From Bryobacterales bacterium (GTDB lineage Bacteria; Acidobacteriota; Terriglobia; Bryobacterales; Bryobacteraceae): a DNA stretch of 64,000 nucleotides. A model generated the notes under the pieces. The model ran no database searches. It was not told where the DNA came from and saw only the letters and a list, made by a program, of their open reading frames with translations. The translations under genes and the position numbers were made by a program. Positions 10,902 to 53,915 of the stretch are shown in pieces. How positions within the stretch are numbered: the first letter of the stretch is position 1; each line of letters opens with the position of its first letter. Where the stretch lies: positions 17,018 to 81,017 of the forward strand of contig JBBPYD010000153.1 of NCBI GenBank assembly GCA_038200305.1, written 5' to 3'.

Positions 10902-10910
10902 CTGCCCCCG

Positions 10911-37213: not shown

Positions 37214-39647
37214 AAATAAACTCGCTCATATTGAACAACAGCAAACAGAGTCTCGGCAAAGAATTCCGCTTCAGGTAATCGATCGCGCTTGTGCGTTCTT
37301 TAGGCGACGGCAGCCGGCCAAATGCGAGCAGCCAGCCGTTGTTAACCAAGGCTTCTGGATCATTGCCATTTTCTTTTTGAAGCCGGTTTGCAAACTTCTC
37401 AGCCTGGCCAAGGCTGAGCGGTCCGTTCATTAATGTGAGTGCCTGCGGCGCTACAGTCGACACGTCCCGGCGTGCGCAACTTGTCGCTGTATCGGGCGCA
37501 TCGAACGTTTGCAGCATCGGCAGCGTCATCGACCGCTTCATTTGTAAGTAAATAGTGCGCCGGGTATATTCCGACGGATCGGGATTCGCCGGCCACAAGT
37601 CTGGCATGCGCGCAGCTTGCAATTCTTCCTTGCTGAGCGGAGGAATAATTCCCATACCGCCCATCTTCAGATTGAGCGTACCCGCCACATCCAGGACGGT
37701 GTCCCGAATGGCATCCCCATCCAGGCGGCGGCGGTTCATACGGCCTAGCAAATGATTCTCCGGATCTTTCTCAAGACTACTCGCATCCGCGGTGCTCGAT
37801 TGCCGGTACGCATTCGACAGCATGATAAGGCGGTGCATCTGCTTAATGCTGTATCCGCGTTGCACAAATTCAGTAGCCAGCCAGTCGAGAAGTTCGGGAT
37901 GTGTGGGCGCATCGCCTTGCCGGCCGAAGTCGTTGGGCGTGGCCACGATGCCCGTGCCAAAGTGCCCCTGCCAAATGCGATTCATCATTACACGGTTTAC
38001 CAGCGGCTGATCCGGCGACGTAAGCCAAAGCGCCAAAGCTTTGCGGCGCTGTGGAACAAATAACACCCCGGCCGGCTCGTTGATGGCCGGACCCGGATTC
38101 AGAGCCGGAGGAAATCCGGGCTCCACTTTCTCACCCTTGTTCTTATATTCGCCGCGATTCAGGATGTGCGTATCGGGAATCGTCTCCTGGTGCGCCAGAA
38201 CATGCGCGGTGGCGTAATGGTTGGGAAGCCTGGTGTACAGTTCGCCGATCCGCTGCATCAGCGCCGCGCGTTCAGCCTGCTGTTCCGCCGATGGCATCTT
38301 GGGTGTAGGAGCGCTCGCGATCGTCTCTCCTGTTTCGACAGGTCCCGAACCATCTTTCTTTTCCGCGGAGATCTTCGCATCGGCATTCTGGGCCGCAGCG
38401 TTCCTGTTTCGCATCCCGCCACCGCGCTGCCGCGCCATCTGCTTCAGGCTCTCCACTTGAGAAATGAGCGGCATGGCACGCGTGTAAGTAAGAATGTCGA
38501 ATTGACTAACCAGGGGGATCTCGCGCTCTTCGCTCCCGGCAAAAAATGCGGCGAAGCTGTAATAGTCGCGCTGCCGTATCGGATCGAACTTGTGATCGTG
38601 GCAGCGCGCGCAGCCGAGGGTCAGCCCAAGGAAAGCCGCGCCCACTGTATCGACGGCATCCGCCTGCCATTCCGCCCGGTACTGGTCACCGTAGTACGTA
38701 AACTCGATCGGGAACGACCCAAGCGTGAAAAGACTGGTGCCAATGCGCCGGTTCACGTTCTCCTGTTTCTTTTTGGGCAGATGCAGCGTTCCTTCCAACT
38801 CCAAATTGCCCGGCCATATTTCGTCTGCCGCAATCTGTTCCTGAACGAAAGTGTTATAAGGCTTGTCCGCATTAAGAGAGCTAATTACATAATCGCGATA
38901 CCGCCACGCGGTCGGGAAGAAATGATCCGTTTCAAATCCTGACGTATCGGCGTAACGCACCAAATCCAGCCAGTACCGTCCCCATCGTTCGCCATAGCGC
39001 GGCGACTCCAGCAGCCGGTCGATCAGCTTTTCATAGGCATTGTCCGATTTGTCGCTGAGGAACTCGTCCACTTCTTTCGGAGTGGGCGGCAGTCCATGAA
39101 GGTCGAAGTAGGCCCGCCGGACCAACGTGCGCCGGTCTGCCGCGGGAGCCGGGTGTAGCCCTTCCTTGTCGAGCTTTGCCAGGATAAACGCATCGACCGG
39201 ATTGCGCACCCAAGCCGGGTTCTTCACTGGCGGAACAAGAGGCCGCTCCGGCTTCTTAAAAGACCACCAGGCCGATTGCTGGAGAGCTTTTGCACTCGCA
39301 TTCCATTTGGCGCCGCCATCAATCCATGCGCGCAGCGCTTCCACCTCGCTGGCCGGCAGAGGGGTCTTGCCCGGCGGCATCTGCAGATCGCCCTCGCGCT
39401 TTACGGCCTTAAAAAGCAGACTCTCCCCGGCTTTATGAGGAACAATAGCAGGTCCACGCGTCCCGCCCTTTAATAATGTTGCGGATTCCCGGACGTCTAG
39501 GCCGGACATCCTGGCATCGCCGTGGCAGCTTGCACACCTGGTGCTAAGGATCTTACGCGCGGACTCTTCGACGGATGTGGATTGGGCGAACAGCAAAGCC
39601 GGACCGATACCCGAAAACACGGCCAACCAAAGAGGTGAAGATCTCAT
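37203..39647 (-). CDS. PSCyt1 / DUF1549 / DUF1553 (PSD1) domain protein
   Basis: 814 aa. Signal peptide. CASCHG heme-like motif. NPVDAFILAKL...YFDLHGLPPTPKEVDEF (DUF1549). CARCHDHKFDPIRQRDYY (DUF1553). 11-nt overlap with the DUF1501 gene. Confidence 0.85.
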   Translation of the reverse strand: MRSSPLWLAVFSGIGPALLFAQSTSVEESARKILSTRCASCHGDARMSGLDVRESATLLKGGTRGPAIVPHKAGESLLFKAVKREGDLQMPPGKTPLPASEVEALRAWIDGGAKWNASAKALQQSAWWSFKKPERPLVPPVKNPAWVRNPVDAFILAKLDKEGLHPAPAADRRTLVRRAYFDLHGLPPTPKEVDEFLSDKSDNAYEKLIDRLLESPRYGERWGRYWLDLVRYADTSGFETDHFFPTAWRYRDYVISSLNADKPYNTFVQEQIAADEIWPGNLELEGTLHLPKKKQENVNRRIGTSLFTLGSFPIEFTYYGDQYRAEWQADAVDTVGAAFLGLTLGCARCHDHKFDPIRQRDYYSFAAFFAGSEEREIPLVSQFDILTYTRAMPLISQVESLKQMARQRGGGMRNRNAAAQNADAKISAEKKDGSGPVETGETIASAPTPKMPSAEQQAERAALMQRIGELYTRLPNHYATAHVLAHQETIPDTHILNRGEYKNKGEKVEPGFPPALNPGPAINEPAGVLFVPQRRKALALWLTSPDQPLVNRVMMNRIWQGHFGTGIVATPNDFGRQGDAPTHPELLDWLATEFVQRGYSIKQMHRLIMLSNAYRQSSTADASSLEKDPENHLLGRMNRRRLDGDAIRDTVLDVAGTLNLKMGGMGIIPPLSKEELQAARMPDLWPANPDPSEYTRRTIYLQMKRSMTLPMLQTFDAPDTATSCARRDVSTVAPQALTLMNGPLSLGQAEKFANRLQKENGNDPEALVNNGWLLAFGRLPSPKERTSAIDYLKRNSLPRLCLLLFNMSEFIYVD

Positions 39648-39836
39648 TGCTTCTCCGGGACGAGAGTTCTGTCATAAGGCAGACAATTAATAATGAAAAA
39701 GTGGCGGACTGAATGTCAAACACGAATTCGTTTCACAATAATGTTTCTTTGTGCGAAACGCGCGGTAACGGGCCGGATCTCACAACGAGGTTCTGCACTC
39801 ACACGCAGTGGCGCACTTATACTTGCGGGTTAATTA

Positions 39837-39855
39837 CGTTTCGCTAGGCGAAACG
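39837..39855 (-). terminator. perfect 8-bp stem / 3-nt loop hairpin downstream of the SDR gene
   Basis: cgtttcgc-tag-gcgaaacg read directly, 20 nt after the TAA at 39875-39877. The trailing U-tract is weak. A related cgtttcac...gtgcgaaacg element lies near 39729-39764. Confidence 0.4.
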
Positions 39856-39874
39856 GTAAGCGCATAGATTCGTT

Positions 39875-40633
39875 TTACCCGCGCCCTACAAGCGGCATCT
39901 TGGTGGCCATCAGTGTCATAAACTGTACGTTAGCCTCCAACGGCAGATTCGCAATGTAAAGCACCGCTTCGGCCACATGCCGTAAGTCCATTCGGGGTTC
40001 CGCCATCTTTCTACCATCGGCTTGCAAAACTCCAGAAGTGATCCGCTCCGTCATCTCAGTAGCCGCATTGCCGATATCGATCTGGCTGCAAGCAATGTCG
40101 TACTTACGACCGTCGAGTGAGAAGCACTTGGTCATCCCAGTGATCGCGTGTTTGGTTGAGGTGTAAGGGACATGGTTGGGCCGCGGAGCGGAGGCTGCAA
40201 TGGAACCGTTGTTGATGATGCGTCCGCCACGCGGCTCCTGGTCCTTCATCAACCGGAACGCTGCCTGCGCACAGAGAAAGGCGCCCGTGAGATTGACGTT
40301 GACGATAGCGCTCCACGTCTCGAAAGGCAGATCTTCAATCGGGATGCCAGGCGCGTTCAGACCGGCATTATTGAAAAGCACATCGAGACGGCCAAATGTT
40401 TCCTTTACTCTTGCGAAAAGCGCATTCACCGACTCCGGGCTGGCGACGTCGGCCGGAACTGCCAGCATCTTGCCACCGGACCCATTGGCCATCGCGATGG
40501 TTTTTTCAAGTGGTTCCGCGCGTCTTCCCGCCACCACCACGGAATACCCCGCAGCTTGCAACGCCAACGAAGCCGCGCGGCCTATACCGCTGCCGGCCCC
40601 GGTCACAAGCGCAATTCTGCCATTCATTCCCAT
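39875..40633 (-). CDS. SDR-family oxidoreductase
   Basis: 252 aa. [10 protein letters not shown] cofactor motif, NNAG, catalytic YTSTKHAI. Confidence 0.9.
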
Positions 40634-40821
40634 TTTGTAACGTGTCCCCTGTCTATGCGGTTAAATCCGGAACCATTATTGTGCCAGACTGTATTCCTTA
40701 GTGACAAAATCCAGTGAGCAGGCTTGATTTTCCTCGATCCTAGCCTGACACTATCTGAGAGTTCGGCGCCCCCGATAAGGGCTTGCTTCAGTGGTTCGAC
40801 TTCTTCTAAGAGGAGTATTGG

Positions 40822-41209
40822 ATGACCAGGTTAGCCAGTCCGTTCTGTAATTACAGCAGGTGGTGGATCTCAATTCTTCAACTCGGCCTGCTTCTGGCAG
40901 GCCGAGCCAACGCTCAAGATATCCGCGCTAAGCTGACAATCACTGTCACGGACCCCGCCGGTGCGTCTTTGCCGCCGCGGACATCGAACTCCGCAACGTG
41001 AAGACGGCTGAAGTTTTTCCGGCCAAAAACGGATGGAAGCGGAGTGTATTCTTTTCTCTTCCTGCAACCGGGTACCTACACAATGAAAGTCTCCGCGCCC
41101 GGATTAAATCCAGCGAACGCGACAATATTGTTCTTCAGTCTTTTCAGGCCAGTGGACTCGACATAAACTTGATATCGGCGGCGTGGCCGACAGCGTCACC
41201 GTAACCGCG
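40822..41209 (+). pseudogene. 5' fragment of a CarboxypepD_reg-type TonB-dependent receptor gene, with at least 4 frameshifts and 3' truncation
   Basis: Good RBS (aggag 40811-40815) and ATG 40822. Signal peptide ...LLLAGRANAQ. Family-typical peptides then alternate between frames: TITVTDPAGA / ADIELRNVKTAEVF / KTDGSGVYSFLFLQPGTYTMKVSAPG / KSSERDNIVLQSFQASGLDI / LDIGGVADSVTVTA. Homology stops near 41209. Confidence 0.75.
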
Positions 41210-42557
41210 GTTCCGCCCGGTCCTGCTTCCGGTTGCGCCGAAAATCCGCCCAGCGAATGGGACGGCCACCCTTAGCAATCAATTCGTGGATTGCCGTCAC
41301 CCGAGCCGGCCTGGGTAGATTGTGATTGGCGCACTCGCGCGCGACCTCCGCCTGCAGCCACTCCCCAAAATCCCCACGACCTCGCCGGTGGTGGCGCGGC
41401 GGAACAAACGGAGTGGCGCTGGTGAAGATTTTCTTCTCTTTACTCCGGCCTCCGCCCCAATGCACGGGAATACACCGCACATCCGGTCTTCCGCCTCCCT
41501 GCCACAACGAACTGAACTCATCAAGCGCCTGACACTCCAATGGATCGAATCCTTCGCGGCAGTGTACCAGCAGATGGTCCAGCCGCCCACCTCCGTTGTA
41601 GTCCAGCGGAAGATAAAACGCATGCCGGTGATCCCGCAGCGGCTCTCCGCTCCGGTCCTTTCCGCTGAATTTGACCGAGACGTGTTGCGGTCCCCCAGCC
41701 AATCGCTTGTGAATGCCCATCAGTTTTGTGCGCACTCGTTCGGCCACTTCCAGCGTCTCTGTCACGTCGGGCGGCACTTTTGAATCGAGTGCATACAGTA
41801 CCGAACAAATTCGCGAATCTTTGCGCTGCCTGTTTACGCGAACCTCCGGCGCGAAAGAATTCACCGGCCGCAGGTAGTCTACGTACCGCATCGCTGGCGG
41901 GTGGCTCCAGCCCGCCCCCAAGATGACTTCGGTTCCGGTCGCGATGGCTTCCATCCAGGTTAGATGCTTCAGCGTTTTGCCGCGCCCGATAGCCGCTGGT
42001 TTGTAATCGTGTGGTGGTATCGCAGACGCAACCGGCACAATCTCCATCTCACAATTCACAGACTCCGCGGATTGCGTGAAGCAATTCCACTCCACCCCGG
42101 ATACGCCCCGCAACGTGCGTGCTTCGATCCACGATTCAGATCGCCCCAAATAGTTCAGCCTGGAAAGCAATTCATCCAGGTCGTCCAAGAAATCCGAATC
42201 GGGCGTCAGGTCCGGCCACCCCATCAACACGGTAGCGCGTGAAGAAAGCACGACAAACCCATCGAAAATCAGAGTCTTGCTCTGAAGATCCTGTTCGTTC
42301 TTGCTGAGGAACGATCGGGTATGCGAAACCGTCGCGGACGGCAGGCGATAGCGCGGCGCGGAGGTCCCGAGCATGCCCAGTAATCGTTCCACACGCGACT
42401 CCTCCCATTCCGGGAGCTTGCGTTTCCAAACGTCATAAAGCGCGCGTATCAGTCGATAACCGGACGGAGGCCATTCTGGAATGCCCTCGTTCACATGCCG
42501 TCCCCAGGCGGTCGCATGATCGCGGCCCGCGGGAAACGCGAGTTCGATCAGTAGCAT
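41196..42557 (-). CDS. csb2: type I-G (I-U) CRISPR-associated Csb2 (Cas5-Cas6 fusion, GSU0054 family); C-terminus probably truncated
   Basis: 453 aa. N-terminus LLIELAFPAGRDHATAWGRHVNEGIPEWPPSGYRLIRAL matches the GRYHATPWGRHVNEG..EWPPSPWRL signature of the family. It ends ...RWADFRRNRKQDRAEPRLR without the terminal glycine-rich RAMP loop. The last 3-4 codons and the stop lie in TonB-receptor-derived sequence. Confidence 0.8.
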   Translation of the reverse strand: MLLIELAFPAGRDHATAWGRHVNEGIPEWPPSGYRLIRALYDVWKRKLPEWEESRVERLLGMLGTSAPRYRLPSATVSHTRSFLSKNEQDLQSKTLIFDGFVVLSSRATVLMGWPDLTPDSDFLDDLDELLSRLNYLGRSESWIEARTLRGVSGVEWNCFTQSAESVNCEMEIVPVASAIPPHDYKPAAIGRGKTLKHLTWMEAIATGTEVILGAGWSHPPAMRYVDYLRPVNSFAPEVRVNRQRKDSRICSVLYALDSKVPPDVTETLEVAERVRTKLMGIHKRLAGGPQHVSVKFSGKDRSGEPLRDHRHAFYLPLDYNGGGRLDHLLVHCREGFDPLECQALDEFSSLWQGGGRPDVRCIPVHWGGGRSKEKKIFTSATPFVPPRHHRRGRGDFGEWLQAEVARECANHNLPRPARVTAIHELIAKGGRPIRWADFRRNRKQDRAEPRLR

Positions 42558-42567
42558 GAGCGTCTCC

Positions 42568-43569
42568 CTAACCGTTCGCGGCTTGCGCTTCTTCTTTCTT
42601 ATCGGCTTTCAAAACCACTGCCGTCTCCACAATGGTGACCGCGGGAGATGCAAACAGGCCATCCTCTGTACATTTCTTGATGCTCGCTTGCACCGCTGCC
42701 AGCAACTCCGGTTCTTCCGGCAGTATGAAACCGGATGGGGATTTCACCGCAAGATCGCGGGCGGGCTCAAAGTTGCACGCCGTGCGTAAACGGAGGCCGC
42801 TCGACAGGAACCGGCGCACCTTCAACAGCGACAATCCAATCAGCAACTCCTGAGCCGGCTCCGACAGACGAAAACCGGAAATCAACGCGAGATCCAGGTT
42901 GAAGTACGCCATGATGCACCCGGCGGTATATTCCACCCTGGGATACGGCACATTCCCGTAAACGTCCTTGTCGTAGTCCTTGGCGCGGATCTTACCGGTC
43001 GGATCGAGCGCATTGTTCTTCACGCCACCGGATACCGCTTCCAACACGTCGGCCGCTTCGATGAAGCCCGTGAGAGCCCGCGGAAGCCTCACCCGACCGT
43101 CTTCCAGGTTCGCCATGAACACGCCATGCACCAGCGCGTTCGGATCGAAATAGAAGAACGTCTCCGCGATCTTATCCCAGGCGATCGGTTTTCCCTTTTC
43201 ATATCCCGACTTCTTGAGAAATTCGCCTTGAAACTTCTTGTTACTGATGATGAACGGCGAGTTGATGCGGTGCGCTTCAATCAACGAACTGGTTTCCGTC
43301 TCCGTGGCGCCCGTCAGCTTGGCTACGATATACGGCAGACCTTCCAAGTCCTTACCGAGCCGTGGGCCTTCCCCGTCCAAGCATGTCTTTTCGAGTCTGT
43401 TGGCTACCGATTGAGCCGATTCCACAAGCAGCATTCGCTTGCCATCGTGCCGCCGGTAATCGGCCGCGCCGAGGTCGGCGAAGCCGGTCGGCTGAAAACG
43501 GTCGCCCTGAAGGGGCTTGAGTTCCTGTTCCAAAAGCAATCGAGGTGCGTTTATGAGTTGTTTAAACAT
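42568..43569 (-). CDS. csb1: type I-G (I-U) CRISPR-associated Csb1 (Cas7, GSU0053 family)
   Basis: 333 aa. RLLLEQELKPLQGDRFQPTGFADLGAADY...LLVESAQSVANRLE matches the family N-terminal signature. 10 nt upstream of csb2. 8-nt overlap with the csx17 end. Confidence 0.85.
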   Translation of the reverse strand: MFKQLINAPRLLLEQELKPLQGDRFQPTGFADLGAADYRRHDGKRMLLVESAQSVANRLEKTCLDGEGPRLGKDLEGLPYIVAKLTGATETETSSLIEAHRINSPFIISNKKFQGEFLKKSGYEKGKPIAWDKIAETFFYFDPNALVHGVFMANLEDGRVRLPRALTGFIEAADVLEAVSGGVKNNALDPTGKIRAKDYDKDVYGNVPYPRVEYTAGCIMAYFNLDLALISGFRLSEPAQELLIGLSLLKVRRFLSSGLRLRTACNFEPARDLAVKSPSGFILPEEPELLAAVQASIKKCTEDGLFASPAVTIVETAVVLKADKKEEAQAANG

Positions 43570-45937
43570 GAGTTGTCATCCTTTTTGTCTGCGCCGCAAC
43601 TTTGGGTTCTTGCTCGTGGAGGACCAGTCGCGATAAGGCCTCGATCGATGGAACTGTAATTGGAATTAGCAGACTGGCCGCGAGCCGTGTTCCATCCACG
43701 CTCCCGGAAAACCGCGCTTTCACGGGCGCTCTGCCGGAGACCCGCAGTCTGCGCATCGCCACTTCGCAGGCATCTCCGATCCGGTTTCCCGTGAGCAACG
43801 ACAGAATCGCCGGTTCCGGGCGAGTCTCAGTCTCAACACCGGAATGAAACAGATGTTTCAGCACAGCATACTCTCTCGGGACGATCGACTGCGAAGGCTC
43901 CGAACGCCAGGAAGAGTACAACTCCGGTTTCACTTGATCCAGCGCCTCCTTGTCATGCCATTCCACCAGCGTCAAACCGAAAAGCAGATCCTCGATTCGG
44001 GATTCATCAATCCCGTCATTCTCGAGGAACGAAACCGCATCTCCAGGTTGCGCGCGGACAGCGCCCCAAAGCGGCAACGATTCGCAATTGAGCCGCTCGC
44101 CATCCATCATCCGGCGCTTCAAGACGCTCACCATTCTCTGCGCCAAGTTGCTCCCGGTCCACGCCGTCTGCCCCGCTCCTATCGCCCACTTCCAGGGTTC
44201 TTTCGGATGAATGGGCGTCAGGTTTGCGCGGATGCTCCCCACGTCGCCGGAACGGAGAATGGACGCCAGGGAAACGGCGATCCGGAAATTGGGCGATCTA
44301 TCGTTCGCCGCCAGCAGCCACCGGGTACTCAGTCCACCAAGAGGACTGTCCAGTTTTGGTTCCAGTTTGAGATCCCGCTGCGCGAAATATCGCTCCATGC
44401 GGCCAATCGCCGCCAGCACATTTTGGAGCCGGTCCTTTTCGCCGCGTAAGACGAATTCATAAACGCTCCCGTCGATCTGCCGCCGCAGTGAGCTGAACCG
44501 GGGCGGTGGAGCCTCCGATTTGAACCCGCGCGCGAACCGGTCGATTCGCGCTAGAACCCGATCAAGTTCTTCGAGCAGATCGACGTCTACCCGTTCCCGT
44601 ACTGGAAATCGACCCAATGGCAATGCGAGAAAACTGTCCCCACGCCGTTTAATAATGCTGTATCGCTGAAATGCGCCGATCCCCGCTGCGTTCCGAGAGA
44701 GACGGCTGCTTCGGCGAATTGCATCGCATCCTCGACAGGTTTACCGCCCCACTCCACCCGGCCTTCTCGCAACAGCGTACGCACTTCTTCAAACCGGCTG
44801 GGCCGCTCCCAAACAGGCATCCAAATCTCGGCTCGCGCGGAAGCCTGGTCTCCTTCATCGGCAGACCCGTACCCCACGGGGCGCGAGCGCACCGTAAATG
44901 GACTGCAGGAAACGCCATGAGTGCCGATACCTTGGCGGCGGGCCGCGCCGCTGGCCCAGGCGACTGCCCCTTCCATGGCGAACACAAAATCCCAATGGTT
45001 GATGGGGCAGCTTGCCCCGATCCCAGGACCTTGGTTATAGCCCCCGGCGCGGCCAGGGTCGAGTTGGCCGACTGCCCCGATAGCCAACTCGGTAGTCGAT
45101 TGGCCAAAGAGCGCATTGCCCAACAGGCTGTTTGTCGCAGGCTCCCCTGAAAGCAGCAATCCGGCGAGCCGCTCCATAAAGCAATTCGTGTAATCGAGCC
45201 GGCCTTCGCTGCCTCCGGTGCCGAGCAGCGGCGGATACATTAGCTTCGTCGTGGTTCGTAACACAACCGCGCTATCGATCCAATCCACCGAGCCGTCTCC
45301 CAGGCGATTGCGGCACGCCCGGACAATCTCATCTTTACCTCCCGTCCGGCGATTCTTCTTCGCCGCTGTGCGCAGTTTGGTCAATGATTTATAAATGGGC
45401 CTGGCCGCTGTTTCAACCTCTTTCATGCTCAAGGAAAGCAGAGGCTGGATATCGATTCCGTTCTTGCCGGCCGCATTTTCCAGATCCGCGAGGAGCTTCA
45501 ACAGTTCGTCTTGCGCCTTGCCCGGTCTGGATGCCGTGGCGGCTCCCCGCACCTCGCGAAGGATCTGATCCACCGTCATCTCACCCGCGCCAAGCTCCGG
45601 CCACGAGAAGATTTCCCTTGATCGTGCGTCCGTACTCCGCAAAGCGCGGCGAGTCGCTGCCGAGGATGGCGTCGATTCCATCCCGGCGGTCCCCTTCGCT
45701 AAATCCGCTCCCGCCATTCCACGGAGCAACGATCGGTGTAGGGCAGTACTCATCGAGGAAAAACCCGACCAGCCCATCTTCGTCGAACTTCGATTCCAGG
45801 CAGAACGCATTCCCTTCCCACCAGCCCCGCGCGCCGGGGTCGGCCTGTTCACTCACAAGACGCAAAACCGCCAGCGCCTTCAAGTACCCGGCCATGGGCT
45901 CGACCGTGCAGCCTTTGAGAATCAACCTGCTTTTCAC
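43562..45937 (-). pseudogene. csx17: type I-G (I-U) large subunit Csx17 (Cas8u2), interrupted by two frameshifts
   Basis: Three consecutive ORFs (45581-46057, 44587-45852, 43562-44623) together rebuild one Csx17. (1) VKSRLILKGCTVEPMAGYLKALAVLRLVSEQ...PTPIVAPWNGGSGF...AEYGRTIK. (2) EIFSWPELG...NHWDFVFAMEGAVAWA...SPFTVRS...EIWMPVWERP...SLGTQRG. (3) IGAFQRYSIIKRRGDSFLALPLGRFPV... The GTG start at 45937 overlaps the cas3 TGA (GTGA). Confidence 0.85.
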
Positions 45938-48300
45938 GCCAACACTTCCTTCGGCGCGTTGCTCGCGCGCCAGTCGGCCGCGACAATCAGCGCTTCCAAA
46001 TAAGCCAGCCGGAACACGCCGAGCCGGTCTTGCAGTTCCAGCATCCGGTCCGTCCACGATTCCACATCGTTTTCCGCCATCCCGAACAACATCGGCGCCA
46101 GATCGAGAGTCATGGCCGTAGTCGAAATACTACCGAGCTTGGCGGCCGGCAACAGATCTCCATCGTAAATGCCCCGCGCAAATTTGATGCTGCCTGGCTT
46201 CGGTTGCATCTCGCCGGGCCACGCGCGAATCGATAGCCGCACCTTTCCGTGATGCGCCGCCGCAAGATACACCGTCAGGTCCGATGCGCCATTCTGCAAC
46301 AACGCCAATGCGCTCGCCAGTTCGTGCCGGAAGTAGGGGCGCCCGTGCTTCCCGTTGCCGGTCGCCTTAGCCATCAACTCCCCAGCGCCACTGGGGTTTA
46401 CCGTCTTTTGGAAAACCTCATGCGCCTTGCCCCAATCATGATGAAGCGCCGCAATCAGTAGCTCTTCCCGGTATTGGCCAATCCTTAAATTCGGAAGCGC
46501 ATTGATAATTTCACGCATCTTCTCATGCACCTCACGGGTGTGCGCTTCCAGCGTCTGCGCATATTTCTGGAAGGTACGAGGCTCGTCGCCGGCGCCTTCT
46601 TCTTTTCCATGAGTTACAAGAGCCTCGGGAACCGGCTTCGTGGAATCCGTATCCCATCCGCGCGAAATACTGTATCCTCCCGATTTGGCGTTGGCGACCA
46701 GCATCATTCCCGGTCGAAGGGCATCCGCATCCACGGCCCTCCACTTGCTTTCCAGCGCGTTCCAGGAACAGATCTCGAACCGGTTGCGGCCTTTTTTGAC
46801 GCCCTTGAGCAGCGCCTCCACTTCGTGAATCGGCGCCGGACATAACTCATCCCGCCCCGGCGCGTCCTTTTTCGTAACAGGCGGATAGGCTTCGCGCCAC
46901 GCAATCAGCACATCGCGATCCTGTTCACTGCGAATGAACCGGGAGACGTCCAGATCGTACCCGGAAAGATCCTGCGTGGTGTCGAAGAGGTCGAGAAGAT
47001 CCCTTCGGCGAAGCACATGCTTTGGCGAGAATTCCGTCTGATGGTTTGGCAGGTCCGCAATTGTTGCCGAGGCCATTTGCGAGACTCTCGATTCAGCTTC
47101 CTGCAACTCTTCCACGGCGTAGGGCAGCGCGATTTCCTCTGTGATCTCGCCGGTTGCCGCCAATTTGAGTTTTCCAAACAACGGGCGATCCACCCAATAA
47201 ATTTCCGCATCGTCCAACTCCCCGGCGCGATTGCAGCGGCCGAAGCGCTGCACCAGACTAGACCACGGCGCCAGATCGGTAACCAGCAGCGCGGAGGAGA
47301 TATCGACGCCGGCTTCAATCACCTGCGTGGAGATCAAAATGCGCCCTTCCAACGGAACGGGACCATCCAGCAGACCCCGCCACCGCTCTTTTTCCGCAGG
47401 CCGGAAGCGCGAGTGGAGCAACTCGCATGGCTGATCCGGCGCGATCCGGCGCAACTCATCGAAGGTCTCGCGGGCCCGGCCCACCCGATTCACCACGGCA
47501 ATCGTTTGCGTTCCCGACCGATGATGGGCCGCGAGGAATTCCGCGAGGCCGGCGGGCCGGCAGCACTCCTCCGGCGCTTTCGCGACCTTCTTCGGCGCGT
47601 TCAATCGCCGCCTGAGGTCTTCGCGAGAGGAATCCTCCGCTGTCAACCGGAACATTTCGGGCGCGTGTATTTGGTCGACGCTCTTCAGCATCGCGGCGTC
47701 CATCGTGGCCGACATCCAAATGGTCGGGCAACTGCCGAAAACACCAAATCGCTCGCGAAAAGCCGCGAGCTGGCACGACGTCGCGAGGCCGTCGCCCATC
47801 AGTTGGACCTCATCCATGATCCAGGCGCAATCGTTCGACAGCATCCCAAAATGAGCGGGCCACTGATACCTGCTCATCCCATATCCCCGGTTGAGTCCTC
47901 TGCTCAGCAGCATTTCCTGCGTGCCGATCAGGATAGCGGGGTGCTCCGGTTGAATAGCCCAATCCTGGTTCACCTCGCCGCCCATCAGAATATGCACACT
48001 GACTTTTATGCCTGTGAGAAGCGCAAACCGTTCCACCCACTTGCGAACGTTCGTCCCGGTTTGCCTCACCAGCGTTCGCATGGGCAAACAATAGGCGAGC
48101 CTGCGCGAAGTCTCGTCAGGTCTCGTAGACAGATTCCAAAGCCAGGCAAGCACCACGGCCGCGGTTTTTCCGGCCCCGGTGGGGACATGAATGGCCCTGC
48201 TCTCCACCGGCTTACCCGCCAGGTCCACTTGGTACTTGTAAGGCCGCAAGCCAACGCACTCGTAAAAAAAGTCGCTGAATTCGGTTATTTTTTCTGACAC
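45934..48300 (-). CDS. cas3: CRISPR-associated helicase/nuclease Cas3 with C-terminal HD domain (type I-G/I-U architecture)
   Basis: 788 aa. N-terminal SF2 helicase: motif I VPTGAGKT, motif II MDEVQL, motif III MSAT, motif VI QRFGRCNRAG. C-terminal HD nuclease: LEAHTREVH, AALHHDWGKAHEVFQ, FRHELASALAL, AAAHHGKVR. Confidence 0.9.
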   Translation of the reverse strand: MSEKITEFSDFFYECVGLRPYKYQVDLAGKPVESRAIHVPTGAGKTAAVVLAWLWNLSTRPDETSRRLAYCLPMRTLVRQTGTNVRKWVERFALLTGIKVSVHILMGGEVNQDWAIQPEHPAILIGTQEMLLSRGLNRGYGMSRYQWPAHFGMLSNDCAWIMDEVQLMGDGLATSCQLAAFRERFGVFGSCPTIWMSATMDAAMLKSVDQIHAPEMFRLTAEDSSREDLRRRLNAPKKVAKAPEECCRPAGLAEFLAAHHRSGTQTIAVVNRVGRARETFDELRRIAPDQPCELLHSRFRPAEKERWRGLLDGPVPLEGRILISTQVIEAGVDISSALLVTDLAPWSSLVQRFGRCNRAGELDDAEIYWVDRPLFGKLKLAATGEITEEIALPYAVEELQEAESRVSQMASATIADLPNHQTEFSPKHVLRRRDLLDLFDTTQDLSGYDLDVSRFIRSEQDRDVLIAWREAYPPVTKKDAPGRDELCPAPIHEVEALLKGVKKGRNRFEICSWNALESKWRAVDADALRPGMMLVANAKSGGYSISRGWDTDSTKPVPEALVTHGKEEGAGDEPRTFQKYAQTLEAHTREVHEKMREIINALPNLRIGQYREELLIAALHHDWGKAHEVFQKTVNPSGAGELMAKATGNGKHGRPYFRHELASALALLQNGASDLTVYLAAAHHGKVRLSIRAWPGEMQPKPGSIKFARGIYDGDLLPAAKLGSISTTAMTLDLAPMLFGMAENDVESWTDRMLELQDRLGVFRLAYLEALIVAADWRASNAPKEVLA

Positions 48301-48361
48301 GTGTTCGCCTATTCTTTACTACCGCGAGCAAAAATACAAGTGATGAAAATGCAAATAAGTA

Positions 48362-48595
48362 CTATAGTGGTCTGGGCGCCCGTTTACTCTCCATGGGTGG
48401 ACCAGGAGTCTCACCCAACCCCCTCCGGCAACTCCCGCAACTCCACCAGCGCCGCATAACGGCATCTTTCGCGTCCCCAAACGGCGCAATGGCGCGTAAA
48501 ATGGCCGCTCGGACACGACCCCACTCCTCCTCCGACCGCTCCGCCTTCGTCATCACCGCGGCAATTTCCGGAAACACATTCCTCCGCACCCGCAT
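48362..48595 (-). CDS. hypothetical small protein immediately upstream of cas3 (speculative)
   Basis: Part of ORF 48362-48757. Only the distal 63-77 aa look protein-like (MRVRRNVFPEIAAVMTKAERSEEEWGRVRAAILRAIAPFGDAKDAVMRRWWSCGSC...). I recognise no family and see no clear RBS. Confidence 0.2.
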   Translation of the reverse strand: MRVRRNVFPEIAAVMTKAERSEEEWGRVRAAILRAIAPFGDAKDAVMRRWWSCGSCRRGLGETPGPPMESKRAPRPL

Positions 48596-48829
48596 CACAA
48601 TTCTGAAATTCACAGTCCGCCCCCCACATCCCGAAATTAACGCTCCTCCTATCTCGTCAAAAACTTGAAAATAATCAAAACCAAGCAAACAAACCAAATA
48701 GATAGCCAAAGATTTCGTGACCCGAAACCGAATCACAACTTTTTTCAACAATCGCACTTACAGCCCAACAACTTACCAGCACCCCGCCCGGCAACCCCCA
48801 CCGCCGTACCCTGGACCCAGGAAAACCAC

Positions 48830-49497
48830 ATGACCTTAAAACAACGACGTACCCAGGCACGCCAAAACGGCGCGAAAGCCGCCGGCACAAAATCCCCCGC
48901 CGGTCTCCAGAAATCTTCCATGAACTCCACCCGTCACGGCCTCACCGCCAAGACCTTGGTCCTTTCCAACGAATCCCCCGAAGCATTCGCCGAGCTCCTC
49001 GAATACCACATCGCCAAATTCCTCCCGCAAGACGAAGTCGAACAGGACCTCATCGACGAAATGGTCGCCTCCCTCTGGCGCCTCCGCCGTATGCGGACGC
49101 TCTAAACCGCGCTCTTTGATCTCCAGATGGACCGCCAGGAACAGGAGTCGCCAAATCCTTCACCCAGATCGACGAACCCACCCGCGTCGCCGTCGCCTTC
49201 GACCACATGGCCAACAACTCCAAGTCCCTCGCCCTCTACCTGCGCTACGAAACCACCTTCCGCCGCAGCTATGACCGCGCCTTGAACAACCTCCTCCGCC
49301 GCCGCTCCAAGCCAAAGGAATCAGCGCCATCCGAGCCGCACGAACCCCAAGAACCGAATTTACGAAACGACCCCAAACCGCTGCCCACAGAATCCCCGAT
49401 CCTCGTCTTCCCGATCGGTGCATCCGGTCCCGCCCCAACCTCCCAACCCCCCGTAACCGCCAAAGGTCACCCGAATGCCGATGCCCGGCCTTTATAA
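48830..49497 (+). pseudogene. conserved-looking hypothetical gene with an in-frame TAA (49103-49105) and a frameshift (about 49150-49165)
   Basis: MTLKQRRTQARQNGAKAAGTKSPAG...SNESPEAFAELLEYHIAKFLPQDEVEQDLIDEMVASLWRLRRMRTL*TALFDLQMDRQEQE is followed in another frame by KSFTQIDEPTRVAVAFDHMANNSKSLALYLRYETTFRRSYDRALNNLLRRR... The two parts read as one helical protein. Family unknown. Confidence 0.55.
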
Positions 49498-49505
49498 TGA
49501 GGAAT

Positions 49506-50993
49506 ATGTCCACCCTCGCTGCCATGCCATCGCCCCAGGTCTTGGCCAAATACGAGATCGTCATCGGCCTTGAGGTCCACGTGCAGCTAGGCACCCGCAC
49601 CAAAATTTACTGCGGTTGCCCCACCAGCTTCGGCGCGCCGCCCAACACCAACGTCTGCCCCGTTTGCCTCGGCCTTCCCGGTGCCCTGCCCGTCCTCAGT
49701 AAGCCCGCCGTCGAAATGGCCATCAAAGCCGCCATTGCGCTCAATTGCCAAGTCCGCCCCCTCTCGCGCCTCGCCCGCAAGAATTATTTCTATCCGGACC
49801 TCCCCAAGGGCTATCAGATCTCCCAATTCGATCAGCCCCTCGCCGAACACGGTTTCGTGGACATCAATGTGGCCGCCGCCATCGATGGCGTCCCGAAACG
49901 CATCGGCGTCACCAGGGTTCACATGGAAGACGATGCCGGCAAGAGCATTCACGACGGATTCAAAGACTCGGATCGCTACTCCTACGTCGATCTCAACCGC
50001 TCCGGCACCCCTCTCATCGAAATCGTCAGTGAGCCGGATATCCGCAGTGCCGGCGAAGCCTACGCCTATCTCACGGAGATCAAGCAGATGATGCAGTTCA
50101 TCGGTGTCTCCGATTGCGACATGGAGAAAGGCCAGCTCCGCTGCGACGCCAACATCTCTGTCCGTATCAAAGGCGCTCCAAAATTTGGAACCAAGGTCGA
50201 GGTGAAGAATCTCAACTCGTTCCGTCACGTCAAACTGGGCATCGAATATGAAACGCTCCGCCAGATCTCCATCGTCGAAAGCGGTGGCAAGGTCTTTCAG
50301 GAATCGCGCCTGTACAACGCCGATCTCGGCGAAACCGTCAGTATGCGCGGCAAGGAACAGGCGCACGATTATCGCTATTTCCCCGAACCCGACCTAGTTC
50401 CGCTCCGCATCGGCGAGGAATGGCTCCATCGCCTGCGAGCTGAAATACCCGAACTGCCCGCAACCATGAAGGCCCGGTTCGTCGAATCCTACGGTCTCCG
50501 CGAATACGACGCGCAGGTCCTCACCCTCACGCGTTCCTCCAGCGAATATTTCGAGCGCGCCGTCAAAGCATCTGGCGATCCGCGCGCTACGTCGAACTGG
50601 GTGACGGGTGACCTCATGGCCGCGCTCAAATCCGAAGGCAAAGACTTCTCCGAATCGCCCATCGCTCCGGAGAACCTCGGCGAGCTCGTTGCCTTGATCG
50701 GAAAGGGCGAGATCACAGGAAAGCTCGCGAAAGAGATCTTCTCGAAAATGCTTTCCACCGGCGACCCCGCCCCCCTCATCATGGAACGCGAAGGGCTGAA
50801 GCAGATCGGCGATACCGGCGCTCTCAGCAAAATTCTTGACGAAGTGCTCGCCGCAAACATCAAACAGGTGGAACAATATAAGAGCGGCAAGACGGCGGTG
50901 ATCGGCTTTCTTGTCGGCCAGGCCATGAAGGCGTCTCGCGGTCAGGCTAACCCGGCCACCATCAATGAGATGCTCAAGGCGAGGTTGCAATAA
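49506..50993 (+). CDS. gatB: Asp-tRNA(Asn)/Glu-tRNA(Gln) amidotransferase subunit B
   Basis: YEIVIGLEVHVQL, CPVCLGLPGALPV, RKNYFYPDLPKGYQISQ, and the C-terminal GatB/YqeY domain. Start is ATG 49506 or 49497. Confidence 0.95.
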   Translation: MSTLAAMPSPQVLAKYEIVIGLEVHVQLGTRTKIYCGCPTSFGAPPNTNVCPVCLGLPGALPVLSKPAVEMAIKAAIALNCQVRPLSRLARKNYFYPDLPKGYQISQFDQPLAEHGFVDINVAAAIDGVPKRIGVTRVHMEDDAGKSIHDGFKDSDRYSYVDLNRSGTPLIEIVSEPDIRSAGEAYAYLTEIKQMMQFIGVSDCDMEKGQLRCDANISVRIKGAPKFGTKVEVKNLNSFRHVKLGIEYETLRQISIVESGGKVFQESRLYNADLGETVSMRGKEQAHDYRYFPEPDLVPLRIGEEWLHRLRAEIPELPATMKARFVESYGLREYDAQVLTLTRSSSEYFERAVKASGDPRATSNWVTGDLMAALKSEGKDFSESPIAPENLGELVALIGKGEITGKLAKEIFSKMLSTGDPAPLIMEREGLKQIGDTGALSKILDEVLAANIKQVEQYKSGKTAVIGFLVGQAMKASRGQANPATINEMLKARLQ

Positions 50994-51014
50994 TAACCAT
51001 ATGGAAGGTCCCGC

Positions 51015-52259
51015 ATGGCGGCGGAAAACTGGCTCTTCTGCACCGAACTCATGGGCCTCCCGGTCTACGACACCCGTGGCCGTAAGATCGGTCGCGTCCG
51101 CGACGCCGCGCTGGTTCCACTCGTCGATCCCGCTCGCATCGATCGATTCCTGGTCGGCGGCGGTTGGGCCTGGCTGAGTTTTCGTTACGATCAGGTTCGT
51201 TCCATTTCGCTCAAAGGAATCTACCTCAAAGATGAGCAGCTCACGCCGTATCACGCTGACGAGTACATGCTCCGCATGGTGCGCGACCTACTCGATCAAC
51301 AGATCATCGACGCCCAGGGCCGCAAAGTAGTCCGTGTCACCGATGTGACGTTCGGTATTCGCGCCGAAAGGCAAGGCGATGTCCTCTATGTCGTCGAGGT
51401 GGATATCGGTCTCCGCAGCATCTTCCGCCGCCTCGTCCATGGCGTCGTGCCGCCCTCCATCATACGCCGCATCCAGGGGCCCATCCCTCCCAATTCCATC
51501 GGTTGGGAGTACTGCAACATCGTTGAGCCCGATCCGCAACGCCGCCTGCGCCTCAACATCAGCAACCGGGCGCTCGAAAAAATGCATCCGGCCGACCTCG
51601 CCGACATCGTGGAAGATCTCAGCCCCGACGACCGCGAAGCCCTTATTGAAACCATGGATACCGAGGTCGCCGCCGACGCACTCTCTGAAATGGACCCGGA
51701 TGTCCAGGCCAGCATCCTGGAATCCCTCGAGACCGAAAAAGCGGCGGAGATCATTGAAGAGATGTCTCCCGATGAAGCCGCCAACGCGCTCGGTGAGCTT
51801 GAGGAAGAGACCTCGCAAGAGATCCTGGATGAGATGACGGCCGAATCGAAGACCGAAGTCAGCGAGCTGATCGAGTACAAAGAGAACACCGCTGGCGCAA
51901 TGATGAACACGGAGTTCGTGGCCCTTCGTGAGACCTCCAGTGTTCTCGAAGCCATGGATTCCTTGAAGGCGAATGAAGAGCTTCTCGAATCGCTCAACAC
52001 TCTGTTCCTGGTGGATGACCAGGATCGCCTCTGCGGCGCCGTCCCGCTGGCCAAGCTGTTCATCGTGCCCGGCTCGGCTCACTTGAAAGACCTTGCCTCC
52101 GGAACGCTCATCAAGGTGCCGGTCGATGAGAGGGAAGATCGCATCACCGAGCTCTTCGATAAATACAACATCCTGACTCTTCCCGTCGTTGACAGAGAGA
52201 ACCGCCTGGAAGGGGTGATCACGGCCGACGATATCATCACGGTCCTCAGGCAGAGATAG
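51015..52259 (+). CDS. soluble PRC-barrel + MgtE N-terminal domain + CBS-pair protein (MgtE cytosolic sensor module without the membrane domain)
   Basis: 414 aa. Two PRC-barrel-like segments (GLPVYDTRGRKIGRVRDA; IIDAQGRKVVRVTDV). Acidic helical MgtE_N region (DLSPDDREALIETMD...AEIIEEMSPDEAANAL). Two CBS motifs ending VVDRENRLEGVITADDIITVL. No TM segments. Confidence 0.8.
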   Translation: MAAENWLFCTELMGLPVYDTRGRKIGRVRDAALVPLVDPARIDRFLVGGGWAWLSFRYDQVRSISLKGIYLKDEQLTPYHADEYMLRMVRDLLDQQIIDAQGRKVVRVTDVTFGIRAERQGDVLYVVEVDIGLRSIFRRLVHGVVPPSIIRRIQGPIPPNSIGWEYCNIVEPDPQRRLRLNISNRALEKMHPADLADIVEDLSPDDREALIETMDTEVAADALSEMDPDVQASILESLETEKAAEIIEEMSPDEAANALGELEEETSQEILDEMTAESKTEVSELIEYKENTAGAMMNTEFVALRETSSVLEAMDSLKANEELLESLNTLFLVDDQDRLCGAVPLAKLFIVPGSAHLKDLASGTLIKVPVDEREDRITELFDKYNILTLPVVDRENRLEGVITADDIITVLRQR

Positions 52260-52266
52260 AGATCCG

Positions 52267-53508: not shown

Positions 53509-53915
53509 AAATAAACCAAATGACACGCGGACTATGCTGGGTTTTTCTTCTCATGGCTCTCACCGCATTCGCGCAGAAGGGCAAGCAGCCGAAGCCGCCT
53601 GAAGTCGAACTGATAGAAGCCAGCGCCCGCCGGCAGGAAGGTAATATCATGATCGACGCAAGGGTGAAGAATATTAGTGAGAAGCCCATCAAGGCTCTGG
53701 TCCTGTTGATCGACTTTATTGCTTCCGACCACAAACAGGTGATCACCACTAAGCGCGGCAGCCTCGACCAGGAGATGCTGGACCCAGGCGAGGAAGCCGG
53801 ATTTCGTGCTCAAATTGAGGATCCCTCCCGCGCCACCGAGTTTCGTATCAACTTTGAAGATGGCGGCGGCAAGTATCTTCGGGCCGAGAAGACCGGACCT
53901 TTTCCGGTCGAGTGA
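53505..53915 (+). CDS. small secreted hypothetical protein
   Basis: 136 aa. Signal peptide LCWVFLLMALTAFAQ. 4-nt overlap with the transporter stop. Confidence 0.6.
   Translation: MKINQMTRGLCWVFLLMALTAFAQKGKQPKPPEVELIEASARRQEGNIMIDARVKNISEKPIKALVLLIDFIASDHKQVITTKRGSLDQEMLDPGEEAGFRAQIEDPSRATEFRINFEDGGGKYLRAEKTGPFPVE

What the first reader, a model, noticed from the sequence alone, without database searches (positions are those of the whole stretch)
41196..48300. Type I-G (formerly I-U) CRISPR-Cas interference module with no adaptation genes and no array
Four co-directional, tightly packed minus-strand genes read as follows:
- cas3: helicase first, HD nuclease at the C-terminus.
- csx17/cas8u2.
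- csb1/cas7 (GSU0053-like).
- csb2/cas5-cas6 (GSU0054-like).

This is the order described for the Geobacter GSU0051-GSU0054 prototype. In that prototype a cas4-cas1 fusion, cas2 and the array follow csb2. Here csb2 is followed immediately by a TonB-receptor gene fragment and an SDR gene.

I found no spaced direct repeats by eye in 39.6-41.2 kb or 48.3-49.5 kb, nor anywhere else in the window. So this is either an orphan effector served by a distant array, a relic, or a module used for something other than canonical adaptive immunity.
Basis: partly seen in the sequence, partly recalled or inferred. Interest (0 to 1): 0.75.

Follow-up and report, generated by a model that had tools for sequence, protein, structure and literature searches.

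The report
Broken remnant of type I-G CRISPR-Cas
This is a real type I-G CRISPR-Cas gene cluster, but it is a recently disabled leftover: one gene carries two frameshifts, another has lost its catalytic end, and the spacer-acquisition genes and repeat array have been deleted. It is ordinary genome decay rather than a new kind of immune module.

Summary
Profile searches assign the minus-strand genes at 41196-48300 to type I-G: Cas3g, Csx17/Cas8g, Csb1/Cas7g and Csb2. The 64 kb window contains no cas1, cas2, cas4 or CRISPR array.

- **csx17/cas8g** is split into three ORFs by a +1 insertion (about 45617) and a -1 deletion (about 44684). Four relatives lack both indels.
- **csb2** loses homology at 41214/41215. 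It lacks the last ~35 residues, which include the conserved GCHFGLG loop and, by inference, the catalytic histidine.
- **The breakpoint** joins csb2 to the antisense strand of a decayed 5' fragment of a TonB-dependent receptor gene.

The closest relative (85% identical Csb2) continues csb2-cas2-cas4/cas1-array. So do 63 of 71 informative I-G loci.

An independent Logan assembly is 100% identical over 15 kb, including both indels and the junction.

The decay looks recent. Cas3 motifs are intact, the repaired csx17 has no stop codons, dN/dS is 0.07-0.18, and relative-rate tests show no acceleration.

Best reading: a recently inactivated type I-G relic (confidence about 0.8). A functional orphan effector is unlikely. 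Interest is low.

The parts
45934..48300 (-). cas3g: fused helicase (N-terminal) and HD nuclease (C-terminal), 788 aa, apparently intact
   Evidence: TIGR02621 E=1.4e-216. Pfam DEAD, Helicase_C, Cas3-like_C_2 and Cas3_HD. Walker A GAGKT, Walker B DEVQ, motif VI QRFGRCNR and HD motifs HHDWGK, FRHE and HHGK are all conserved against 10 relatives. It aligns in a single frame to L003 Cas3 at 68% identity.
43562..45937 (-). csx17/cas8g pseudogene: three ORF pieces (45581-45937, 118 aa; 44587-45579, 330 aa; 43562-44623, 353 aa)
   Evidence: TIGR04113 matches profile positions 125-352 and 365-716 in two different ORFs. The N-terminal 110 aa lie in a third ORF. The intact 790-aa Csx17 of L003 aligns in three frames. 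The repaired ORF is 791 aa with no internal stop.
45615..45617 (-). Frameshift 1 in csx17: one extra G (GG to GGG in ATCAAGGGAAATC)
   Evidence: The DNA alignment with L003, L008, L009 and L026 shows a 1-nt insertion only in the window.
44681..44684 (-). Frameshift 2 in csx17: one base missing at the G run in CAGCGGGGATCGG
   Evidence: The DNA alignment with four relatives shows a 1-nt deletion only in the window. All other indels against L003 are multiples of 3.
42568..43569 (-). csb1/cas7g, 333 aa, apparently intact
   Evidence: TIGR02570 E=2e-25 and PF09617 E=8e-38. It is 80% identical over its full length to the 333-aa Csb1 of L003.
41196..42557 (-). csb2 (Cas5-Cas6 fusion), truncated at the 3' end: 453 aa, with the last 5 codons plus the stop encoded by foreign sequence
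   Evidence: TIGR02165 E=5e-33, covering profile positions 1-455 of 492. Homologues are 480-490 aa, and the window lacks the conserved tail ...GFGLRLEF...ALGYGCHFGLGxF. The AF2 model of the closest relative places strands 452-462 and 478-481 and the loop in the missing part. Its best fold matches are Cas6.
41210..41215 (.). Deletion junction: csb2 codon ~448 joined to the antisense strand of the TonB-receptor fragment
   Evidence: Nucleotide homology to csb2 of L006 and L003 stops at 41214/41215. tblastn of L006 Csb2 ends at 41214. The plus-strand receptor reading '...ADSVTVTA' runs to about 41209.
40822..41213 (+). Decayed 5' fragment (~135 codons) of a TonB-dependent-receptor-type gene, with signal peptide and CarboxypepD_reg domain and about 4 frame changes
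   Evidence: The stitched translation matches PF13620 positions 2-81 of 82, E=1e-18. It is colinear with intact receptor genes in other loci. In the window it needs three reading frames. The rest of the ~1100-codon gene is absent.
48830..49494 (+). Pseudogene of a small conserved protein ('MTLKQRR...'), with one in-frame stop and one frameshift, divergent from cas3
   Evidence: Translations. It gives two HSPs in different frames. Intact 236-245 aa homologues lie upstream of cas3 on the opposite strand in I-G loci L026, L018, L012 and L040. It has no family assignment.

Best explanation
This is a recently inactivated remnant of a canonical type I-G CRISPR-Cas locus, sitting between ordinary chromosomal genes (SDR and gatB).

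**Ancestral state (inferred from relatives):** cas3g - cas8g - cas7g - csb2 - cas2 - cas4/cas1 - array.

**Damage (shown):**
- A deletion with its left end at csb2 codon ~448 removed the end of csb2, cas2, cas4-cas1 and the array. It fused the stump to the antisense strand of an already decayed TonB-receptor gene fragment.
- Two single-base indels broke cas8g into three ORFs.

**Consequences (inferred from published I-G biochemistry):**
- Csb2 without its C-terminal strands, glycine-rich loop and catalytic histidine cannot cleave or hold the crRNA hairpin.
- Without full-length Cas8g, Cascade cannot recruit Cas3.
- The locus therefore cannot perform crRNA-guided interference, whether or not an array exists elsewhere.

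cas3 and cas7 still look intact only because the inactivation is recent.
For: **Identity of the genes.**

**cas8g frameshifts.**
- They are shown. Four relatives lack both indels, and the L003 orthologue is an intact 790-aa ORF.
- They are not an artefact of one assembler. Logan contig SRR24807095_54176 is 100% identical over 14,986 bp, including both indels and the junction.
- The same homopolymer and GATC contexts occur in 43.8 kb of uninterrupted ORFs elsewhere in the window without frameshifts.
- Large genes outside the island show full-length domain coverage.

**csb2 truncation.**
-.
- The missing part holds H473 of P0002 in the conserved GCHFGLG motif.
- Published mutagenesis places the catalytic histidine near the C-terminus. 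T. sulfidiphilus H503A is inactive (PMC9638904). B. animalis H520A and D530A are inactive in a 545-aa protein (bioRxiv 10.1101/2022.08.19.504415).
- The AF2 model (pLDDT 85) and Cas6 fold matches agree.
- Cas3 joins the complex only when Cas8g is present (PMC9638904).

**Expected continuation.**
- L006 (85% identical Csb2) has csb2-cas2-cas4/cas1-array.
- 63 of 71 informative I-G loci carry adaptation genes next to the effector.

**Nothing left in the window.**

**Recency.**
- The repaired csx17 has no stop codons.
- Cas3 motifs are intact.
- Relative-rate tests are non-significant for all four genes, and the window has no more private changes at otherwise invariant columns than its relatives (0-5 per gene).
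- dN/dS is 0.07-0.18.

**Neighbouring decay.** The island's edges also hold pseudogene fragments.
Against: - The cas genes show no sign of relaxed selection apart from the three lesions. A still-useful module would look the same.
- The adjoining receptor fragment has about 4 frame changes in 400 bp, against 2 in 7.1 kb of cas DNA. If one deletion created both stumps at the same time, the cas genes must have stayed under selection long afterwards. I explain this with two steps: the receptor gene was disrupted earlier and the cas deletion came later. I could not test that.
- Both frameshifts lie in short G runs next to GATC, which is a context prone to long-read errors. The sequencing platform of SRR24807095 is unknown to me, and the Logan contig comes from the same reads.
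- The rest of the genome was not available, so an array or a second cas locus elsewhere cannot be excluded.
- Mapping the published catalytic histidine onto GCHFGLG is an inference from position and conservation, not from an alignment with the published proteins.
Confidence: 0.8

Rival explanations
1. A functional orphan effector served in trans. The module is still expressed and uses crRNAs from a type I-G array, and possibly adaptation genes, elsewhere in the genome.
For: - cas3 and cas7g are intact, and no rate acceleration is seen.
- Four other I-G effector loci (L051, L056, L084, L085) have intact genes and no array or adaptation genes within 5-10 kb. Stand-alone I-G effectors therefore do occur.
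- A preprint reports that Csb1 can also process pre-crRNA. That could in principle offset the loss of the Csb2 active site.
Against: - cas8g is split by two frameshifts, and Cas8g is needed to recruit Cas3.
- Csb2 lacks the part that binds and cleaves the repeat hairpin.
- The intact orphan loci all keep a full-length csb2 and a single-frame csx17.
- The window contains no array.
Confidence: 0.07
2. Partly an artefact. The two csx17 frameshifts are homopolymer or methylation-motif sequencing errors, so cas8g is really intact. Only the csb2 truncation and the loss of the adaptation genes and array are real.
For: - Both indels are single bases in G runs next to GATC.
- The repaired ORF has no stops and no private changes at 142 invariant columns.
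- L007, from a MAG on a 1.1 Mb contig, shows similar frame breaks in csx17 against the 96-99% identical L003. This shows that such artefacts can occur in assemblies of this kind.
Against: - An independent Logan assembly is identical at both sites, though it uses the same reads.
- 5 GGGGATC/GATCCCC sites and 255 G/C runs of 4 or more lie in 43.8 kb of uninterrupted ORFs outside the island with no frameshift.
- All frame breaks found in the window lie in the 8.9 kb island (csx17, the receptor fragment, the MTLKQ gene). ORFs elsewhere are long and uninterrupted, and the 30 or so I checked against Pfam show no split genes.
- Even if this were true, Csb2 would remain truncated and the array would still be absent.
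Confidence: 0.08
3. A repurposed module. The stump (Cas3, Cas7g, C-terminally truncated Csb2 and Cas8g fragments) has been kept for a function that needs no array, such as gene regulation, DNA repair or an RNA-independent nuclease role.
For: - The cas genes are far less decayed than the adjoining receptor fragment (against 35, 41).
- dN/dS is low.
- The piece-1 stop and the piece-2 ATG are arranged as TGAgATG. The third piece covers the part that includes the Cas11-like C-terminal domain described in PMC9638904.
Against: - No relative shares this architecture.
- The low dN/dS reflects the long shared history since the split from L006 (dS 0.43), not necessarily the time since truncation.
- The window has no partner genes such as Tn7-like transposition genes, regulators or other nucleases.
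- Two out-of-frame breaks in one gene are typical of loss, not of domestication.
Confidence: 0.05

Closest known systems
Canonical type I-G (formerly I-U) CRISPR-Cas, e.g. Geobacter sulfurreducens GSU0051-0054 and Thioalkalivibrio sulfidiphilus HL-EbGr7 (Shangguan et al. 2022, PMC9638904)
   Same: It has the same four effector gene families in the same order, cas3g-cas8g-cas7g-csb2. Cas3 has the helicase first and the HD domain last. The cas3 stop and csx17 start overlap by 4 nt, as in L003.
   Different: cas8g carries two frameshifts. Csb2 lacks the C-terminal part of its Cas6 domain. The window has no cas4-cas1, no cas2 and no array.
Closest sequenced relatives: metagenome contig L006 (JGI 3300066662; Csb2 85% identical), L003 (JGI 3300079509) and L007 (Bryobacteraceae MAG; Csb2 69-70% identical)
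   Same: The effector genes are orthologous at 65-85% amino-acid identity. L003 and L007 have also lost cas2 and most of cas4-cas1 by deletion.
   Different: L006 keeps cas2, cas4-cas1 and an array. L003 and L007 keep a full-length csb2, a 66-codon cas1 remnant and a degenerate 13-repeat array. L003 has an intact 790-aa csx17. The window has lost all of these.
Decaying or partial CRISPR-Cas loci in general, a well-known outcome of CRISPR-Cas turnover (my own knowledge, not tested here)
   Same: It shows loss of the adaptation genes and array, frameshifted cas genes and flanking pseudogenes.
   Different: Nothing in principle. This is one more example, in a subtype and lineage (probably Acidobacteriota) where few have been described.
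Stand-alone intact I-G effector loci L051, L056, L084 and L085 (GTDB species representatives)
   Same: They have no adaptation genes or array within 5-10 kb of cas3-csx17-csb1-csb2.
   Different: Their four genes are each full-length and in a single frame. The window's are not.

Membership tests
Type I-G CRISPR-Cas system | Cas3 with an N-terminal superfamily-2 helicase and a C-terminal HD nuclease (Cas3g) | tested here: met
   TIGR02621 E=1.4e-216. DEAD at residues 37-201, Helicase_C at 253-360 and Cas3_HD at 589-782. Catalytic motifs are conserved.
Type I-G CRISPR-Cas system | Large subunit Cas8g/Csx17 encoded as one intact gene | tested here: not met
   The sequence is clearly csx17 (TIGR04113, E=5e-68 and 3e-60). 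It is split into three ORFs by a +1 and a -1 indel that four relatives lack.
Type I-G CRISPR-Cas system | Cas7g/Csb1 backbone subunit (GSU0053 family) | tested here: met
   TIGR02570 E=2e-25 and PF09617 E=8e-38. It is full-length against L003.
Type I-G CRISPR-Cas system | Csb2, a Cas5-Cas6 fusion with a complete C-terminal Cas6 domain (glycine-rich loop and catalytic histidine) | tested here: not met
   TIGR02165 E=5e-33, but it covers only profile positions 1-455 of 492. The last ~35 residues, including GCHFGLG, are absent. The published catalytic histidine lies within the last ~25 residues in B. animalis and at H503, near the C-terminus, in T. sulfidiphilus.
Type I-G CRISPR-Cas system | cas4-cas1 fusion gene and cas2 next to the effector genes | tested here: not met
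   tblastn with the closest relative's Cas4-Cas1 and Cas2 finds nothing in 64 kb. Pfam scans of the other ORFs find no Cas1, Cas2 or Cas4. Elsewhere in the genome could not be tested.
Type I-G CRISPR-Cas system | CRISPR array of ~36-nt repeats | tested here: not met
   TRF, repeat finder, a k-mer chain search, the clade's repeat consensus at up to 13 mismatches, and Rfam all find nothing in the window. The rest of the genome could not be tested.
Functional orphan effector using a distant array | All effector genes intact | tested here: not met
   csx17 is frameshifted twice and csb2 is truncated.
Functional orphan effector using a distant array | A cognate array elsewhere in the same genome | not testable with these tools
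   The source genome is not among the GTDB representatives (best hit 69%). Only a 15 kb Logan contig of the same sample could be retrieved.
CRISPR-associated transposon or other repurposed type I module | Loss of cas3 together with Tn7-like genes (tnsA/B/C, tniQ) or other partner genes nearby | tested here: not met
   cas3 is present and looks intact. The Pfam-scanned ORFs of the window include no transposition, integrase or recombinase genes.

The most novel reading that the evidence does not exclude
The truncated module (intact Cas3g and Cas7g, Csb2 without its Cas6 active site, Cas8g made as separate pieces) has been kept by selection since the deletion. It would work without its own array or adaptation genes, either with crRNAs supplied and processed in trans or in a role that needs no crRNA.

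The only positive hints are:
- the cas genes are far less decayed than the receptor fragment fused to them;
- they show no rate acceleration.
Probability: 0.05. Interest if true: 0.6.

Novelty: new member of a known kind. Interest (0 to 1): 0.15.

Why it matters
It matters little beyond annotation. The locus should be recorded as a type I-G remnant (cas8g pseudogene, truncated csb2), not as a working or 'orphan' interference module.

It adds one dated snapshot of how type I-G loci are lost. The window has lost the array and adaptation genes by deletion and carries point indels in an effector gene. Related loci (L003, L007) have lost only the adaptation genes and keep a degenerate array, and the closest relative (L006) keeps everything.

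The small census made here gives a useful baseline. About 89% of informative I-G loci keep adjacent adaptation genes. About 6% have an array only, and about 6% have neither.

Tried and rejected
- **Programmed frameshifting or a naturally split cas8g.** Rejected. Relatives have one ORF, the two sites need shifts in opposite directions, and neither is a slippery heptamer.
- **Systematic sequencing error.** Considered because both sites are G runs next to GATC. Judged unlikely from the identical Logan assembly and the many identical contexts that are not frameshifted. Not excluded.
- **Empty-site comparison.** I tried to date the deletion by scanning metagenome contigs with the neighbouring PSD1 protein. 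Relatives are only 60-76% identical (87% for one short fragment), their gene order is rearranged, and the one close contig (L123) is 2 kb. Uninformative.
- **Source genome.** I looked for it in the GTDB representatives, through cluster names and in the literature under the run accession. It was not found, so the organism is only inferred to be Acidobacteriota-like, from the closest cas relatives and the receptor architecture.
- **The rest of the TonB-receptor gene on the far side of the island.** None found.
- **The 131-aa ORF upstream of cas3 (48362-48757).** It has no family hit and no homologue in 80 I-G loci. Probably not a gene.
- **Promoter and terminator scan of the island.** No more sites than in shuffled sequence.
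- **Exact mapping of T. sulfidiphilus H503.** Not possible without that sequence. The related Thioalkalivibrio MAG protein (L081) has histidines at 495 and 502, and both lie in the segment missing from the window.

Full report
**1. What is in the sequence**

The minus strand of 41196-48300 carries five ORFs, not four. NCBIfam and Pfam assign them without ambiguity to type I-G:
- 45934-48300 is Cas3g (TIGR02621, E=1.4e-216). The helicase domains come first and Cas3_HD lies at residues 589-782.
- 42568-43569 is Csb1/Cas7g (TIGR02570, PF09617).
- 41196-42557 is Csb2 (TIGR02165).
- Two adjacent ORFs, 44587-45852 and 43562-44623, both hit the Csx17/Cas8g model, at profile positions 125-352 and 365-716.
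- The missing N-terminus of Csx17 lies in a third frame at 45581-45937.

The large-subunit gene, however, is broken.

**2. The two frameshifts in csx17/cas8g**

The intact 790-aa Csx17 of a related contig (L003) aligns to the window in three frames: residues 1-110, 108-437 and 420-789.

A DNA alignment with four relatives shows one extra G at 45615-45617 and one missing base at the G run 44681-44684. Every other indel against L003 is a multiple of three.

After repairing both sites, the ORF is 791 codons long with no stop.

As the sequence stands, translation from the csx17 start gives about 105 native residues followed by 13 out-of-frame residues and a stop.

**3. Are the frameshifts real?**

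- A contig assembled independently by Logan from run SRR24807095 is 100% identical to window 38584-53569. It includes both indels and the csb2 junction.
- Both sites are short G runs next to GATC, a context prone to long-read errors. I therefore checked the rest of the window. It has 43.8 kb of long uninterrupted ORFs containing 5 GGGGATC/GATCCCC sites and 255 G/C runs of four or more, and none of them breaks a reading frame.
- The genes I scanned outside the island show full-length domain coverage, for example EPSP synthase 3-417 of 417 and OMP_b-brl_4 1-838 of 838.
- All the frame breaks I found lie within the 8.9 kb between the SDR gene and gatB.

I conclude the indels are most likely real. 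The Logan contig uses the same reads, and I do not know the platform, so a residual doubt remains.

**4. csb2 is truncated**

More than a hundred homologues are 480-490 aa long. The window's protein is 453 aa.

Alignments show that homology stops after residue ~448 (...FRRNRKQDRA). The window lacks the conserved tail ...GFGLRLEF...ALGYGCHFGLGxF. At the DNA level, similarity to L006 and L003 ends at 41214/41215.

An AlphaFold model of the closest full-length relative (P0002, pLDDT 85) places strand 452-462, the glycine-rich loop with H473, and strand 478-481 in the missing part. Its best PDB fold matches are Cas6 enzymes.

Published work locates the Csb2 active site at this end:
- T. sulfidiphilus H503A cannot cleave the repeat, and the C-terminal Cas6 domain binds the hairpin (PMC9638904).
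- B. animalis H520A and D530A are inactive in a 545-aa protein (bioRxiv 10.1101/2022.08.19.504415).

Equating those histidines with the conserved GCHFGLG histidine is my inference. In a Thioalkalivibrio MAG protein, the only C-terminal histidines (495 and 502 of 511) both fall in the segment the window has lost.

**5. What should follow csb2, and what does**

*In relatives:*
- The closest relative (L006, Csb2 85% identical) continues csb2-cas2-cas4/cas1-array, with a 36-nt repeat.
- Among 80 I-G loci from GTDB species representatives, 63 have adaptation genes adjacent. Four have an array only, four have neither, and nine are too short to tell.

*In the window:*
- Nothing matches Cas4-Cas1 or Cas2.
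- There is no spaced repeat.
- Nothing comes within 12 mismatches of the clade's repeat.
- There is no Rfam hit.

Instead, the csb2 stump is fused to the antisense strand of the first ~135 codons of a TonB-dependent-receptor-type gene (40822-41213, plus strand). The stitched translation matches CarboxypepD_reg over positions 2-81 of 82 (E=1e-18), but it needs about four frame changes. The remaining ~1000 codons are gone.

On the other side of the island, between cas3 and gatB, lies another pseudogene (48830-49494, one stop and one frameshift). Its intact homologues sit upstream of cas3 in four other I-G loci.

**6. How old is the damage?**

- Cas3 keeps every helicase and HD motif.
- Tajima relative-rate tests of the window against L003 (and against L006 for csb2) are non-significant for all four genes. 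The one nominally significant outgroup comparison (csb1 with L008) points to faster change in L003, not in the window.
- The window has 0-5 private changes at otherwise invariant columns, the same range as its relatives.
- dN/dS is 0.18 for csb2 against L006 (dS 0.43) and 0.07-0.12 against L003.

The module was therefore under purifying selection until recently, and the lesions are young.

The receptor fragment is much more decayed than the cas genes. This is easiest to explain if that gene was already broken, perhaps when the island arrived, and the deletion that removed the csb2 end, cas2, cas4-cas1 and the array came later. I could not test this. An attempt to find an 'empty site' in relatives failed because they are too distant and rearranged.

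**7. Mechanistic conclusion**

Shown:
- the gene identities;
- the two indels;
- the truncation and its breakpoint;
- the absence of adaptation genes and an array in 64 kb;
- the canonical layout in relatives.

Inferred from published I-G biochemistry:
- Csb2 without its C-terminus cannot process or hold crRNA.
- Without full-length Cas8g, the Cas7-crRNA backbone cannot recruit Cas3.
- The locus therefore cannot carry out interference, even if a compatible array exists elsewhere.

I put 0.8 on 'recently inactivated relic'. The remainder is split three ways: a functional orphan served in trans, frameshifts that are sequencing errors on top of a real truncation, and a repurposed stump.

**8. Comparison with known systems, and novelty**

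By gene content this is a type I-G locus. As a system it fails four of the six defining features I tested: intact cas8g, complete csb2, adaptation genes, and array. It should be filed as a I-G remnant.

Partial and decaying CRISPR-Cas loci are common knowledge. Related loci L003 and L007 show an intermediate stage, with cas2 and most of cas4-cas1 deleted and a degenerate array retained.

Intact stand-alone I-G effectors do exist (L051, L056, L084, L085) and would make a better target for the 'orphan effector' question than this window.

The rest of the window consists of ordinary chromosomal genes and has no mobile-element or defence genes. Interest is low.

Noticed in passing
window 48830-49494 (+); L026 1957-2694 (-), L012 2060-2770 (-), L018 388-903, L040 2623-3093: A small protein family with no Pfam or NCBIfam assignment ('M..RR....N...S.GP.T..GK..S..NA.RHGL...') recurs 1.5-4 kb upstream of cas3, on the opposite strand, in at least four acidobacterial I-G loci. 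The window's copy is a pseudogene. It could be a passenger of the same mobile island or a gene associated with I-G.
   Followed up: partly
L003 11486-12750 and L007 11489-12623: The next-closest relatives have lost cas2 and most of cas4-cas1. Only the last ~66 codons of cas1 remain directly after csb2, followed by a 13-repeat array whose repeats are 64-97% identical, some with indels. L003 also carries a large serine recombinase and a DUF2924 gene a few kb upstream of cas3, which suggests a mobile-element context.
   Followed up: partly
L051, L056, L084, L085 (GTDB species representatives): Four I-G effector loci have cas3, csx17, csb1 and csb2 all full-length and in a single frame, but no adaptation genes or array within 5-10 kb. 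L084 has a second cas3-like gene right after csb2, and L085 has a partial second csb2. These are better candidates than this window for truly orphan I-G effectors.
   Followed up: partly
L007 6567-8978 versus L003 6610-8982: The Bryobacteraceae MAG L007 (1.1 Mb contig) is 96-99% identical to L003 but shows two frame breaks in csx17 that L003 lacks. L016, L025 and L026 show similar breaks in cas genes. These may be indel errors of long-read MAGs, which is a caution for any pseudogene call from such assemblies.
   Followed up: no
window 48001-50000: The strongest composition anomaly in the window lies here (GC skew -0.29, AT skew +0.14). It coincides with the C- and A-rich coding strand of the MTLKQ-like pseudogene and its proline-rich tail, not with any repeat.
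   Followed up: partly
window 33431-34027 (+) and 34574-35404 (-): A 198-aa SDR ORF covers only profile positions 1-169 of 195, so it may be a truncated gene. A 276-aa protein made only of TPR_12 repeats lies nearby. These may be further gene fragments about 6 kb from the cas island.
   Followed up: no
window 9549-14611 and 35714-39647 (-): Two sets of 'planctomycete-type' gene pairs are present: DUF1552 with PSD2-5/PSCyt3, and DUF1501 with PSCyt1/PSCyt2/PSD1. The DUF1501-PSD1 pair is syntenic in about 60 metagenome contigs, while the position of the neighbouring SDR gene varies between them.
   Followed up: partly
window 3938-3982: A perfect-to-95% tandem duplication of a 20-mer (GTTSCCCAAAACACACGGCG, 2.3 copies) lies in the intergenic region between a radical SAM gene and a DUF7482 gene.
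   Followed up: no
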